From Stylophora pistillata (taxonomy: Eukaryota), in assembly GCF_002571385.2 (NCBI RefSeq), contig NW_019218038.1:251274-315273 (forward strand): a stretch of DNA of 64,000 nt, read 5' to 3'. Position numbers and translations under genes: made by a program. How positions within the stretch are numbered: the first letter of the stretch is position 1; the number at the start of each line of letters is the position of its first letter. Below, piece by piece: positions 33,360-62,155 of this stretch. The notes below the pieces were generated by a model. That model had not been told where the DNA came from, did no database searches, and saw only the letters and a list, made by a program, of their open reading frames with translations.

Positions 33360-33812
33360 TTATATTCTTGAGGGCTCCGAATGGTTTTCAAATAGGTCCA
33401 CCTCTGTTTGCGGACTGTCTTCCGATTTATCGTCGTCGAATTCGGGATCATTTGGTCTGGGTCCAAGCTCACTCAAATCTAAAAATATGGTGTTGTTCTC
33501 CGCTTCGTTGCTGTTCACTTCATCGTGTTTACTGCACGTTACGCCACAGGCATCGCAGAAGTTAGCGATAACACAAACGAGGAAGCCGCTAAAAAACGAA
33601 ACCATTCCACAGATGAGCACAGCTTGGCTGGAACCTTGAGGAAAAGATTCAGACCAGTACGTTCCTAAGAGCACGCAACCAATGAAGATCAAGACAAAAG
33701 GAACCAAGCATATGGCGCAGACTTGATACCGGGTCTTCCAACTCCAGAAGGCTTGCCATTGGGTCTCATTCGTAGGTGAATCACTAATTTCGACGGTTAC
33801 ATTCTCACGCAT
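33360..33812 (-). CDS. Intronless two-TM hairpin protein (150 aa), TMEM100/PIRT-like
   Basis: TM1 CAICLVPFVLIFIGCVLLG, TM2 LICGMVSFFSGFLVCVIA, CDACGVTC cluster, acidic tail, C-terminal SRI. Confidence 0.8.
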   Translation of the reverse strand: MRENVTVEISDSPTNETQWQAFWSWKTRYQVCAICLVPFVLIFIGCVLLGTYWSESFPQGSSQAVLICGMVSFFSGFLVCVIANFCDACGVTCSKHDEVNSNEAENNTIFLDLSELGPRPNDPEFDDDKSEDSPQTEVDLFENHSEPSRI

Positions 33813-34762
33813 TGTCTCACTTCACGTTGCCTTGGTGCATTCATCTGGCCATTGACACACGAAGGTTTCTTCGAAGGACTCGCAGCTAACACGTGTGCAA
33901 AGTCAGCCACAAATTAAGGCGACAATTATCCTCTCGCCAAGAGCAATGTTTACGTTTATCGTCCTCCTGTCACACGAAAAATATAACACAACGTCCGTGT
34001 GGTCAATTGATCTGTGACGTCACGGGCCTTGTTAATTTCGCTGGTAATATAATCGACACGAACGATGACAGTTTTGAGAGCGGAGTGGACAATTTCATAC
34101 AATCGTCACGCTAGCTTGAAAAGGATTTACAAAAAACAAAAATATACCAAATTTAAAAGACCATCTTTCACATCGATTACCAATTCATTTATCAATTTTT
34201 GATGAGAAAGCAGATACAAATATTTCCCTTTCTTATCTTCACGGTTCCGCTCCTGCAAGTTCCTGATTTAGCCTTTATATTGCACAATGTTTCACTTATA
34301 GATTACCATATCTTGTTACGCTATCAGCTTTTTGGCACGTTTCGATTTTTTTGGTATAAACCGTACTTCTTCTCAGGGATGATACGAGGTAGATGAGTTT
34401 TTGAAACATTTTAAGTTAATTCGGTTGCGTTTTTTGTCTTTTAATATAACGCTGGACAAAAGAAAACGAACTGATTATGTAAACGAAAATAGCACTGGAA
34501 CAATTACTGCACTTGAGGTCACGATCATTCATAATTCAGGGCCATTAAACAAATAGAAAACTTGGGTGCTTAATCTCAAATGACAATGCAAAATCAAGAC
34601 ACACATTTCCCAAGCTGTATCTGTCGATCCTTTCTGTCATGCACTACTACAATTCCGTTGGGGCCAACTTGTCGTTCTCGTCTGTATCTTCTCGGTTTGG
34701 CTGTGCGTCCCTCTGTGCTCACTGTTTCGCTCTGCTTACTGTTTCGCTTTTCCCACTATTCC

Positions 34763-34956
34763 TTTGTTCCCCTGAGCACACTCAAAGTTCCTTTGCACCC
34801 ACTGTTTCTCTGTCCCTCTAGACACACTCAAAGTCCCTTTGTACCCACTATTCTTCAGTCCCTCTGGACACACTCAAAGTCCCTTCGTGCACACTGTTCC
34901 TCTGTCCCTCTGGACACACTCAGTCAAAGTTCCTTTATACCAACTGTTCCTCTGTT
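34763..34956 (+). repeat. ~45-bp minisatellite, about 4 units
   Basis: Recurring ACACTCAAAGT(T/C)CCTT...CACTGTTCCTCTGTCCCTCTGG. Confidence 0.8.
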
Positions 34957-59150: not shown

Positions 59151-61576
59151 AATGTAATTAGGCAAAATTGGAGTCGGACGAAACTGTAAAAAAATGCTAA
59201 GCTATGGTCTTCGAAAATGGCAAGGAACCCCCGCGCTTATGCACGAAAACAGTACTAAGACCATAGGTACTGGGTTGGCTCTGTTCGGACCAACTGAATT
59301 TGAAACATAGAGAGCAAATGTCTGGAGAAAAAGGGTCGATTAATAGCATTTATGCAAAGAAGTGAGTTGAAATATTCATCTTGCCTTGACACTCCTTCCA
59401 CGGCTCGTGGTAATCTCACGTGCTTTGAGGGTTACATGACGCTTCAGTTGTGATGCCCTAAAAACACACTGCTTGCCCGTAACACACCCTTTTGCAGTCC
59501 GGCACAGTTATCAAATTTGATAACCCCAATGGACTTCATAACAGCGACTGTTCATAACTTGGCGAATTTTCGGAGGATGTCAGCTTTGTCCTTCAAATTT
59601 TCGGTTGTTTACGCGTTGTCTACCGCAAGTTCCACGCAATTAACTTAAGAGAAAGACGAAATTCGCGAGTGCACAAAATGGCGGACTTTGGTAGTTGATT
59701 GTGTGAGTTTTTGCATGACGATGGCCAGACCTGAGACAGATTGTCTCAGGTATGTTTGTAATCTTTGCTGTAAATTTTAAGGCAGTTGCGAATTTTTGTG
59801 GAACACGTAGACAAATTGCCGGGTTCCTCAGTTATTTTCCTTTCCATCCATCGCATACACATCAAAGGGCACAAAAAGTTGTTTGTCTGTCTGATTCCGC
59901 TACTGACCGCCATGCCGTTCAGTTGCTTATGCTTCTAGGGAATGAGCAGTGCGGCTAGTGTCAAATGGCAGAATTATGGATGTTCACATGCAGAAAATAG
60001 TCTCTTTGTGTGGTTTTTTTTTGTTTCTGCCAAAACGGAGAACTGATGAATTCCTCCCCTGTGGCGTGAACAAATACCTGAGCCATTTCCTGGACATTGA
60101 ATTAAAAACCTGGTTACACGTTAAGAAACGTAACAGGCAAACAAATAAAGAAGAATGCTAGACTTTTTAAAACAAGAGTAAAAAGAGCTCATGAACTGTT
60201 TAGTGGCGATAGAAGATATTCCAAACACAAGTCTTATGCAATAACTAGTGCTCTAAGTGTTAAGTAATTACTTTGCGACGATGATCGAATCACAGAGCGC
60301 AATCTCTGGCACTTCTGCAGCGTTACATCATGTTTCAAGCGCGAACCTTCAACTGTAAAGTCAAATTAATGACTGTGATCACAACATTCTCAGATCTGAT
60401 ATGCAAATACGATACCTTGCGTGTTCTCACGTGCTTTGGTGAACGTAACGCTTACCGAATCACACTTTTCACGCGTAATCTCACGCGTTCACAACGTTAT
60501 TAACCCAGCAGAGGCATGGGACCTTGCCAGCGACGGCGACAGCAACGAGTACATAGGGAAACAAAACCTCGACACATGGGTTTCAAAACATCTCACATTT
60601 TGTGGCAATTTTCTACATATATAATAACAGCGTGTAATCACACAAATTTGTGTGGTCTGAAAACGGGAACCACGATTACAAACTCTTCACATTACAATAA
60701 AAGTTAGCTACATCATCTTAGAGCTAACTTTTTATTTGAACTTTTTGCACATGATGATTTTGTGAATTTCGTCTTACAGAAAGTGAAGTTATGCTACAAC
60801 TAAGTAGCTGACGCGCATAAAAAATATAATTGCTTTGCGAAATATGTCCATTGCAAAATCACATTATCATTGTCCCGGACATTTTATTCATCAAAGAGAC
60901 TCATTGAAAAATGCATGAGTCGAGTATTTTTCAGGCTAGTTAGAATATCATGACGTAATTTCTGTAGCCCAGGAGCATACGCGTATAGGCGTATAGATCA
61001 CGGGGTAAAACAGTATTGTATAAAATACCGCAGTTTCCTTTCTCATCGTTATGCACAATCACAATGAGTCAAAAAATCAACTAATCACAGCGAAACCAAA
61101 TGTTTCAAAACGAATAGTCGTTGTCATTGGATCCCATCACCTGAAGAAGACTAGCTGCATGCTGTCAAAACGTTGAAGATTCGTGAATCAACGCTGAAGT
61201 AACTAACTTGTGATCAGACTAACATTAACATCCTGTCTCCTAAAGTAAACGCAGAGTATGTTGCATTCTCAATACGTAAGTCTTGAGTTTAGAGCGTTAG
61301 CCGTTCGGCTAGGACCTTCGACGACTGAAGTAAAACTCAAATCGCGCATGAGGTAACAGCTTTCCAAAATTCGGTAAGGCTGTTTATCACCTTTACTAAC
61401 TTAGTAAATCATTTAAATGCGCAAACTAAAACTTGACTTTGCAATGATTTCCATTCTCGGCCTAGCCTTTTCCTCCTTGTTTCCACTGTTTCCTTCGCAG
61501 AGTGCAGAAAAGTCAACGAAAGGACAATTTCTGGACGACTTATCAACTGCTTGAGGGGGTGCGGCAAGGAGATTTG

Positions 61577-62155
61577 TCACACTTCACTTGATACTGTTCC
61601 TGATGCGACAGTTTCGTAAGATGGCGGCGATAAGTTAGCATCCGCTAACATTTCGTCATCTGTGTAACATGGCGGTGGGTCACACTGAGCCTGTGTCCTG
61701 GTGTCATGCGTATCATTCGTTGTTACCTCCTCATAAGAAGGAGGGTAACCTAAGATTCTCGTCAAAAGAAAGTTTAATTCTCTTCTTGATGTCGATAAAC
61801 CTCTTGTTTGAGCCTCGCTGTTATCCATCTGTCCCTCGCGAAGCAGCAACTCGATGTATTCGACACTGCGTGTCAATGGACTTTCGTTTCCTTCCGTTGT
61901 ATTCTCTAACCCACTTGCTCTCTTTTTAATGTAACGTATACCAATAAAACAAAGTCCAGCCAACAATCCGAAACAACACATTGTATAACCTCCTGTTTTC
62001 ATATGCGAGCTGTTATTTGTCACTCCAACTACAACCATAAGGATTCCGCATAGAATGAAAACAACGATAGCAACTGCTGTCTTATACAGGCGGGACGAGC
62101 CTATCAATGACCGCCTATGGTAGCCGTGGTACCAAACTTCACTGAGTTCTTGCAT
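61577..62155 (-). CDS. Intronless two-TM hairpin protein with PY motifs and a PDZ-type end (~192 aa)
   Basis: TM1 AVAIVVFILCGILMVVVG, TM2 GGYTMCCFGLLAGLCFIGI, YIKKR; PPSYEEV, PPCY, PPSYETV; C-terminal SEV. Confidence 0.85.
   Translation of the reverse strand: MQELSEVWYHGYHRRSLIGSSRLYKTAVAIVVFILCGILMVVVGVTNNSSHMKTGGYTMCCFGLLAGLCFIGIRYIKKRASGLENTTEGNESPLTRSVEYIELLLREGQMDNSEAQTRGLSTSRRELNFLLTRILGYPPSYEEVTTNDTHDTRTQAQCDPPPCYTDDEMLADANLSPPSYETVASGTVSSEV

What the first reader, a model, noticed from the sequence alone, without database searches (positions are those of the whole stretch)
33360..62155. Shared G-x6-G helix signature suggests TMEM100/PIRT-like channel regulators
Seen: TM2 has G-x6-G in all six small proteins (GMVSFFSG, GAITFVFG, GMAVYVVG, GGFLFSVG, GLVLCIAG, GYTMCCFG). 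TM1 has it in five (GITVFITG, GAVLVGSG, GLVMFVAG, GVVFVVAG, GILMVVVG), and four have a Pro early in TM1 (CLVPF, LLPGF, CVFPM, FRPLS). Known: vertebrate TMEM100 and PIRT are two-TM proteins that modulate TRPA1/TRPV1/TRPM8, and barttin is a two-TM, PY-motif ClC-K subunit. From memory, TMEM100 TM1 also opens with a Cys-x-x-Pro motif. Inference: a cnidarian expansion of channel auxiliary subunits, possibly relevant to thermo- or chemosensing.
Basis: partly seen in the sequence, partly recalled or inferred. Interest (0 to 1): 0.72.

Follow-up and report, generated by a model that had tools for sequence, protein, structure and literature searches.

The report
Coral cluster of glycine-hairpin membrane adaptors
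Six small, conserved coral genes sit side by side and encode two-helix membrane proteins with evenly spaced glycines; they likely act as helper proteins for other membrane proteins, but only one of the six has the basic tail expected of a TMEM100/PIRT-type channel regulator.

Summary
Six ORFs with intron-free coding sequences (A-F) encode two-TM hairpins, and G-x6-G occurs in 11 of 12 helices (0 of 20,000 shuffles reach this). The glycines are near-invariant in coral orthologues, and the cluster appears syntenic in about seven assemblies. A seventh gene 11 kb past the window end is a borderline Neurensin/TMEM74 member. The coral's two clear neurensins carry the same glycine register.

The TMEM100/PIRT label is only partly supported. 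No protein reaches the TMEM100, PIRT or barttin Pfam cut-off. With the glycines masked, A-B-C resemble each other but not D-E-F or the neurensins. Bacterial two-TM proteins score as well as cross-group pairs. The motif most likely packs the hairpin and does not say which partner is bound.

In PIRT, TMEM100 and TMEM174 the published function sits in the C-terminal tail, and the tails here differ. D, E and F carry conserved PPxY motifs (likely NEDD4-type adaptors), A and C are acidic, and only B has a short basic tail; B's nearest named Atlas clusters are TMEM100/PIRT (0.77-0.78, lead only). No channel partner was shown.

The parts
33360..33812 (-). Gene A, 150 aa two-TM hairpin; G-x6-G in TM2 only; Cys-rich juxtamembrane segment, acidic tail, no PY motif
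   Evidence: 19 orthologous hits; sense RNA depth about 32-34 in two raw-read runs; no close second copy
37501..37860 (+). Gene B, 119 aa two-TM hairpin; G-x6-G in both TMs; Pro at start of TM1; Cys cluster then short basic tail; the most TMEM100/PIRT-like member
   Evidence: basic cluster in 14 of 15 group members; low sense RNA depth of 1-3.6
40324..40722 (+). Gene C, 132 aa two-TM hairpin related to A; G-x6-G in both TMs; strongly acidic tail
   Evidence: (A-C hhalign probability 91-93%); covered by polyA-run contigs but no sense raw reads
42603..43139 (-). Gene D, 178 aa two-TM hairpin; G-x6-G in both TMs; C-terminal PPxY
   Evidence: PY in 14 of 14; sense RNA depth about 2
43149..45451 (-). 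Intron in the 5' leader of gene D (GT-AG on the minus strand)
   Evidence: 3 spliced reads in one run, X24
48158..48868 (-). Gene E, 236 aa two-TM hairpin; G-x6-G in both TMs; four L/PPxY motifs
   Evidence: PY in 21 of 21; sense RNA depth 2.5-10
61577..62155 (-). Gene F, 192 aa two-TM hairpin; G-x6-G in both TMs; three PPxY motifs
   Evidence: PY in 19 of 19; single copy; expression not tested
36631..41803 (.). One unspliced 5.2-kb contig in polyA RNA runs spanning B and C
   Evidence: X1 36631-41803; X2 36996-41803; a contig does not prove a single transcript

Best explanation
The six genes are an old, conserved coral cluster of two-helix membrane proteins whose glycines, seven residues apart, likely let the two helices pack tightly into a hairpin, and whose different cytosolic tails likely make them accessory or trafficking adaptors for other membrane proteins rather than one family of TRP regulators. 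Shown: real genes (four of the six with sense RNA reads); the conserved glycine register; a confident hairpin model for B; three tail types. Inferred, step 1: spacing 7 puts both glycines on one helix face, forming the TM1-TM2 contact. Step 2: both termini are cytosolic. Step 3: D, E, F (and neighbour H) bind WW-domain NEDD4-type ligases through PPxY and so drive endocytosis or degradation of a partner channel, transporter or receptor, in outcome like TMEM174 with NPT2A. Step 4: B, with a Cys cluster and a short basic tail, may bind acidic lipid and a channel in the PIRT/TMEM100 manner. Step 5: A and C, with acidic tails, do something else. All six are probably remote kin of the PIRT/TMEM100/TMEM74/TMEM174/TMEM252 group, but none is a demonstrable orthologue.
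For: Motif beyond chance and conserved. Small residues are concentrated at -7/0/+7 of TM1 and 0/+7 of TM2. Gly is replaced only by Ala, Ser or Asn in distant orthologues. The AlphaFold2 model of B rises from mean pLDDT 55 (11 orthologues) to 73, with 96-98 across the hairpin, when the other groups are added to the alignment (57 sequences). The loop holds few K/R (0-2) and the flanks hold more. PY motifs are in all members of D (14), E (21) and F (19) and in none of A (19), B (15) or C (4). Atlas neighbours fall in the TMEM100/PIRT and TMEM252/51/174/61 groups. Neurensin/TMEM74 members in the same genome share the register, and one lies beside the cluster. In PIRT, TMEM100 and TMEM174 the C-terminal tail carries the function.
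Against: Common ancestry of all six is not shown. With anchor glycines masked, the permutation counts are A-B-C 1 of 3000, D-E-F 399 of 3000, ABC vs DEF 1189 of 3000, and six vs neurensins 1067 of 3000. Leave-one-group-out profiles recognise E and F (0 of 300 shuffles) and B (9 of 300) but not D (36), C (70) or A (231). Atlas scores for B are under the tool's 0.9 bar. No partner, WW binding or localisation was tested.
Confidence: 0.5

Rival explanations
1. One reading: all six are TMEM100/PIRT-like auxiliary subunits of cnidarian TRP (or ClC) channels, and the glycine face is the channel-binding surface.
For: B: top four named Atlas rows are TMEM100/PIRT, and 8 of its 10 best hits share a family or clan. 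Weak PIRT hits for B (E 0.089) and H (E 0.15). Pro at the TM1 start in A-D, as in PIRT (Pro55). Conserved basic tail in B. TMEM74 couples to HCN1.
Against: No cut-off reached; PIRT in 1 of 73 members and TMEM100 or barttin in 0 of 73. Genome searches with both families gave 0 matches (low sensitivity). None of the 29 representative hits scanned carries these families. A and C have net acidic tails (-3.5 and -9). Published determinants lie in the tail, not the glycines.
Confidence: 0.12
2. Only B (with or without C, its possible co-transcribed neighbour) is a true pre-bilaterian PIRT/TMEM100-type channel regulator; the others are trafficking adaptors or unrelated in function.
For: B matches in size, Pro-initiated TM1, both glycine pairs, short basic tail (14 of 15) and a helix running on past TM2 to residue 106. 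Atlas neighbours are TMEM100/PIRT.
Against: Atlas score 0.78 is in the range that shuffled proteins reach. The PIRT hit disappears when the hairpin alone is scanned and is seen in 1 of 11 B members. A basic patch after TM2 is also the ordinary positive-inside rule.
Confidence: 0.18
3. Convergence: two or three unrelated small-gene families (A-B-C; D-E-F; H) share a generic hairpin-packing motif and happen to be neighbours.
For: No residual similarity between subgroups. Bacterial-type two-TM proteins reach hhalign 84% against D and 43% against A, above most cross-group pairs. GxxxxxxG is a widely reported TM motif.
Against: Seven such genes lie within about 43 kb in the same register. The only other ATG-initiated two-TM ORFs found in 204 kb lack the motif (2 of 2). 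D-E hhalign 71% and A-C 86% on full-length alignments. The mixed alignment improved the model.
Confidence: 0.15
4. The glycine stripes mediate homo- or hetero-oligomers that themselves form a small pore or scaffold.
For: Heptad small-residue stripes on both helices.
Against: No polar pore-lining residues stand out; fold searches gave only generic hairpins.
Confidence: 0.05

Closest known systems
TMEM100 (PF16311) and PIRT (PF15099)
   Same: Small two-TM proteins; PIRT has intracellular termini, TM1 starting near a Pro and TM2 at a Gly. Gene B has the same size class and a short basic tail, and they are its nearest named Atlas clusters.
   Different: No Pfam membership; A and C tails are acidic; D, E and F have long PPxY tails; no channel partner known. 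That TMEM100 and PIRT themselves carry G-x6-G is recalled, not tested here.
Neurensin/TMEM74 (PF14927)
   Same: Two clear members in this genome (84.7 and 43.2 bits) have G-x6-G in both helices in the same register; neighbour H is a borderline member. TMEM74 is a two-TM protein coupled to HCN1.
   Different: Neurensins and H have a 35-39 residue spacer between the glycine pairs, against 12-21 in A-F; no similarity to A-F beyond the glycines.
TMEM174 / TMEM171 / TMEM252 / TMEM51-139 / TMEM61
   Same: Nearest named Atlas clusters for D. F hits TMEM252 in 17 of 18 members. TMEM174's C-terminal region drives NPT2A endocytosis.
   Different: All below cut-off; for F itself the TMEM252 match (residues 137-189) is to the PPxY tail, not the hairpin.
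Barttin (BSND)
   Same: Two-TM accessory subunit of ClC-K; PY motif and juxtamembrane palmitoylated Cys are recalled, not from a call.
   Different: No Pfam hit in any scan; barttin is 320 aa.
PPxY membrane adaptors of NEDD4-family ligases (e.g. NDFIP, PMEPA1, LAPTM; recalled)
   Same: Short membrane anchor plus several conserved cytosolic L/PPxY motifs in D, E, F and H.
   Different: Different TM number and no sequence match; likeness is functional only.

Membership tests
TMEM100 (PF16311) | Score over the curated cut-off (34 bits) | tested here: not met
   No hit for 6 of 6 ORFs at E<=1 or for 73 alignment members at E<=0.1; genome search 0 matches from 2 candidates
TMEM100 (PF16311) | Two TM helices | tested here: met
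TMEM100 (PF16311) | Highly basic C-terminus with a KRR-type triplet (PMC7081373) | tested here: inconclusive
   Basic cluster in B 14 of 15, F 13 of 19, D 6 of 14, and 0 in A, C, E; could be the positive-inside rule
TMEM100 (PF16311) | Binds and loosens the TRPA1-TRPV1 complex | not testable with these tools
   No coral TRP partner sequence obtained; needs experiment
PIRT (PF15099) | Score over the curated cut-off (30.6 bits) | tested here: not met
   Best 13.0 bits (B), 1 of 11 B members, lost on hairpin-only scan; H 12.2 bits; genome search found no candidate
PIRT (PF15099) | TM1 begins near a Pro (PMC6773951) | tested here: met
   A, B, C, D yes; E, F no
PIRT (PF15099) | Polybasic amphipathic C-terminal helix that binds PIP2 and TRPM8 | tested here: inconclusive
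   B only: net +3.7 tail, modelled helix to residue 106 with pLDDT falling to 58; binding not testable
Barttin | Pfam family match | tested here: not met
   Absent
Barttin | Required for ClC-K function | not testable with these tools
   Needs co-expression
Neurensin/TMEM74 (PF14927) | Score over cut-off (27.7 bits), genes A-F | tested here: not met
   Not among the 3 genome matches; absent
Neurensin/TMEM74 (PF14927) | Score over cut-off (27.7 bits), neighbour gene H | tested here: inconclusive
   27.5 bits, 28.4 with neighbours in frame; 23.6 bits by hmmscan; non-Gly similarity to the two neurensins 4 of 3000
TMEM252 (PF15664) | Score over cut-off (27 bits) across the TM region | tested here: not met
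   F 19.9 bits, matched in residues 137-189, the tail
NEDD4-family PPxY adaptor (functional class) | Conserved cytosolic L/PPxY motifs | tested here: met
   D 14 of 14, E 21 of 21, F 19 of 19; A, B, C none
NEDD4-family PPxY adaptor (functional class) | Binds WW domains and promotes partner turnover | not testable with these tools
   Needs pull-down and turnover assay
Any solved accessory subunit | Specific fold match | tested here: inconclusive
   Foldseek no match at E<=0.001; VIA-align best Z 8.6, generic hairpins

The most novel reading that the evidence does not exclude
The double G-x6-G hairpin marks one ancient superfamily of channel and transporter accessory subunits (PIRT, TMEM100, TMEM74/neurensin, TMEM171/174/252, barttin) that had already diversified before cnidarians split from bilaterians. 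This syntenic coral cluster preserves that radiation, and gene B is a pre-bilaterian PIRT/TMEM100-type tuner of a sensory TRP channel.
Probability: 0.15. Interest if true: 0.65.

Novelty: new member of a known kind. Interest (0 to 1): 0.33.

Why it matters
If the best explanation holds, corals keep a conserved cluster of uncharacterised membrane adaptors, three or four of them likely ubiquitin-ligase recruiters: a real but modest annotation gain. If the bolder reading holds, the scattered vertebrate two-TM regulators of TRP, HCN, ClC-K and NPT2A would form one pre-bilaterian superfamily, and gene B would give a testable handle on how coral sensory channels are tuned.

Tried and rejected
Family searches of the own genome for PIRT (no candidate), TMEM100 (0 of 2 candidates) and TMEM200/DUF2371 (0 of 2; nothing rang in the controls) were empty and are weak evidence of absence. 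The PDB sequence search with the six-protein profile gave nothing better than E 0.087. Fold searches returned generic hairpins; the Atlas structure search for D was uninformative. hhalign of A-F against the coral neurensins (probability 0-4%) was no better than the motif-less two-TM control at 17416-18990. One search used a wrong TM2 anchor for H; one search replaces it. A recent tandem expansion was rejected: A and F have no close second copy (two weak matches to A are interrupted by stops), and each gene has its own orthologue group. Further cluster members were sought with a hairpin HMM over 1,291 ORFs from the window and 14 flanking stretches: only the six training genes passed; H scored E 2.5 and was found by eye. 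No complex prediction was obtained, so oligomerisation and partner binding are untested. Earlier scan findings: four look-ups, nothing. Literature: searches (listings only) showed no paper on cnidarian members or on these families as one superfamily; subscription journals are mostly not covered, and Weng 2015 was not held.
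Full report
Observation. The window is eukaryotic DNA from a stony coral, judged by its named homologues in Oculina patagonica and Desmophyllum pertusum and by RNA runs labelled coral. Six ATG-initiated ORFs with uninterrupted coding sequence lie between 33360 and 62155: A (150 aa, -), B (119, +), C (132, +), D (178, -), E (236, -) and F (192, -). Each has two hydrophobic segments. G-x6-G is in TM2 of all six and TM1 of five. Composition-preserving shuffles of the 12 segments give 2.3-2.8 on average, and 0 of 20,000 reach 11, even allowing any spacing from 1 to 10. 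The Pro precedes the first TM1 Gly by 7 residues in A, B and C and by 9 in D. The Cys-x-x-Pro form holds only for A and C.

They are real, old genes. Three homologue searches returned 85 proteins, which sort into A 19, B 14, C 1, D 6, E 24 and F 21 by best BLAST hit, at 41-100% identity, near-identical self records included. More distant members came from the representative search. The motif glycines are invariant in 19 of 19 columns, against 6 of 14 other TM glycines. Where they change in distant members, it is to Ala, Ser or Asn. Synteny is inferred from identical longest-contig lengths: seven contigs carry two or more groups, namely 64,437,903 (B/C, D, E, F; Oculina), 2,402,287 (A, C, E), 1,245,235 (A, B, D-like), 501,527 (A, E), 336,862 (A, D-like), 568,522 (E, F) and 721,008 (A, E). 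Gene models that fuse F to E (Desmophyllum) and B to C (Oculina) also imply the same neighbours and strands. A and F have no close second copy in this genome. In two stranded raw-read runs, A (depth about 33), E (2.5-10), D (about 2, with a spliced leader) and B (1-3.6) show sense reads; C shows none, but polyA contigs of two other runs span B and C. F was not tested.

A seventh gene. 11 kb past the window end (contig 326565-327251, window-equivalent 75292-75978) is a 228-aa ORF, H, with G-x6-G in TM1, G-P-x5-G in TM2 and a Pro-rich tail with PPxY. It is a borderline Neurensin/TMEM74 member (27.5-28.4 bits against a cut-off of 27.7; 23.6). Two clear neurensins elsewhere in the genome (84.7 and 43.2 bits) carry G-x6-G in both helices in the same register. 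This is the best tool-based link between the motif and a named family, and TMEM74 is reported to couple to HCN1.

Is it TMEM100/PIRT? By Pfam, no. Among the six ORFs and 73 alignment members, TMEM100 and barttin never appear and PIRT appears once (B, 13 bits, cut-off 30.6), below an unrelated DUF. It vanishes when only the hairpin is scanned. F matches TMEM252 in 17 of 18 members; in F itself the match is in the PPxY tail and below cut-off. The language-model search is kinder. Restricted to named clusters, B's top four rows are TMEM100 (0.78, 0.77, 0.77) and PIRT (0.77). D's named neighbours are TMEM252 (0.91, 10% of members), TMEM51/139 (0.88), TMEM174 (0.84) and TMEM61 (0.82). The tool rates scores under 0.9 as leads only. 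A profile of all six groups against 1.84 billion representatives gave 51 hits at E<=0.001. Of 29 scanned, none carried TMEM100, PIRT or barttin at E<=0.005; two had weak TMEM171 hits. Of 20 looked up, six were named: Oculina, Ptychodera, Lingula, Watersipora, Babesia and a Kerfeldbacteria bacterium. The three bilaterian proteins have G-x6-G in both helices and PY tails, so look-alikes exist outside cnidarians; so do bacterial-type hairpins at the same E-values, though these were selected by the profile.

Are the six one family? Partly. A-C align at hhalign 86-93%, A-B at 21-61% and D-E at 17-71%, depending on the region and alignment. A bacterial DUF3137 hairpin scores 84% against D. With the anchor glycines masked, A-B-C remain similar (1 of 3000 permutations), but D-E-F (399), ABC vs DEF (1189) and six vs neurensins (1067) do not. 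Leave-one-group-out profiles recognise E, F and weakly B, but not A, C or D. In favour of a common fold, adding the other groups to B's alignment raised the AlphaFold2 model from pLDDT 55 to 73, with 96-98 over the hairpin. Fold searches show only a generic hairpin.

Mechanism. Spacing 7 puts both glycines on one helix face (established helix geometry). Residue volumes are lowest at -7/0/+7 in TM1 and 0/+7 in TM2. GxxxxxxG is a commonly discussed TM motif. Basic residues are scarce in the loop and richer in the flanks, which fits cytosolic termini, most clearly in B, D, E and F. Published work puts the function of this protein class in the C-terminal tail: PIRT's polybasic amphipathic helix binds PIP2 and TRPM8, TMEM100's KRR controls TRPA1-TRPV1, and TMEM174's C-terminal region drives NPT2A endocytosis. 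The coral tails fall into three types. D, E and F have PY motifs in every member. A and C are acidic (net -3.5 and -9) with no PY, A with about four juxtamembrane Cys. B is short and basic (net +3.7, cluster in 14 of 15) with three Cys. So I commit to accessory or trafficking adaptors with a structural glycine signature: NEDD4-type recruitment for D, E, F and H (PPxY-WW binding is established knowledge, recalled), and B as the one PIRT/TMEM100-like candidate. Palmitoylation of the Cys clusters is a prediction by analogy with barttin (recalled). No partner was identified.

Papers seen: passages only of PMC6773951, PMC7081373, PMC3879021 (second-hand statement about Liu et al.), PMC13252570 (abstract and passages, preprint), PMC10611563 and PMC11339754; the other papers as search listings only. 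No supplements were read. That vertebrate TMEM100, PIRT and barttin carry this glycine register is recalled and was not testable, because no call returned their sequences.

Verdict. This is a conserved, unannotated coral cluster of probable remote members of a known kind of small two-TM regulators, with a channel-regulator role plausible for one gene and unshown for all. Interest 0.33.

Noticed in passing
L002:1392-2078(+), contig C254 326565-327251, about 11 kb past the window end: Seventh two-TM gene (H), borderline Neurensin/TMEM74, with G-x6-G, G-P-x5-G, a Cys-containing loop and a PPxY tail; an inverted partial copy with two stops lies about 1 kb upstream.
   Followed up: partly
window 36631-41803: One unspliced 5.2-kb contig in polyA runs covers B and C, with no contigs in the flanking intergenic bins; possibly a long transcript carrying both ORFs, though 51 ATGs and several AATAAA lie between them.
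   Followed up: partly
window 37655 and 40459: An in-phase GT donor in B and AG acceptor in C match the Oculina gene model that fuses B's N-terminus to C's hairpin; no read supports the splice here, so it may be a prediction artefact.
   Followed up: partly
window 17416-18990(-): 524-aa uninterrupted two-TM ORF with a long Pro-rich tail and four L/PPxY motifs but no G-x6-G in its TMs; no Pfam family over cut-off. Used as control.
   Followed up: partly
window 24143-25891(-) and 26155-29606(-): Intact 582-aa BTB-BACK-Kelch-like ORF followed by fragmentary copies (identified by eye).
   Followed up: no
window 1600-16000: Several copies of collagen-Ig genes with a C-terminal domain resembling that of contactin-associated proteins, on both strands (by eye).
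   Followed up: no
window 41255-42488: Minus-strand reads, probably D's 3' UTR, run towards C's 3' end, giving a likely tail-to-tail overlap.
   Followed up: no
L001:2453-3406(+): Uninterrupted rhodopsin-like GPCR ORF between gene F and gene H (by eye).
   Followed up: no
window 30583-30927, 57056-57607, 58545-58997: Fragments resembling non-LTR retroelement ORFs (by eye).
   Followed up: no
L017 (C93) and L018 (C887): Two unannotated coral Neurensin/TMEM74 genes over the Pfam cut-off.
   Followed up: partly
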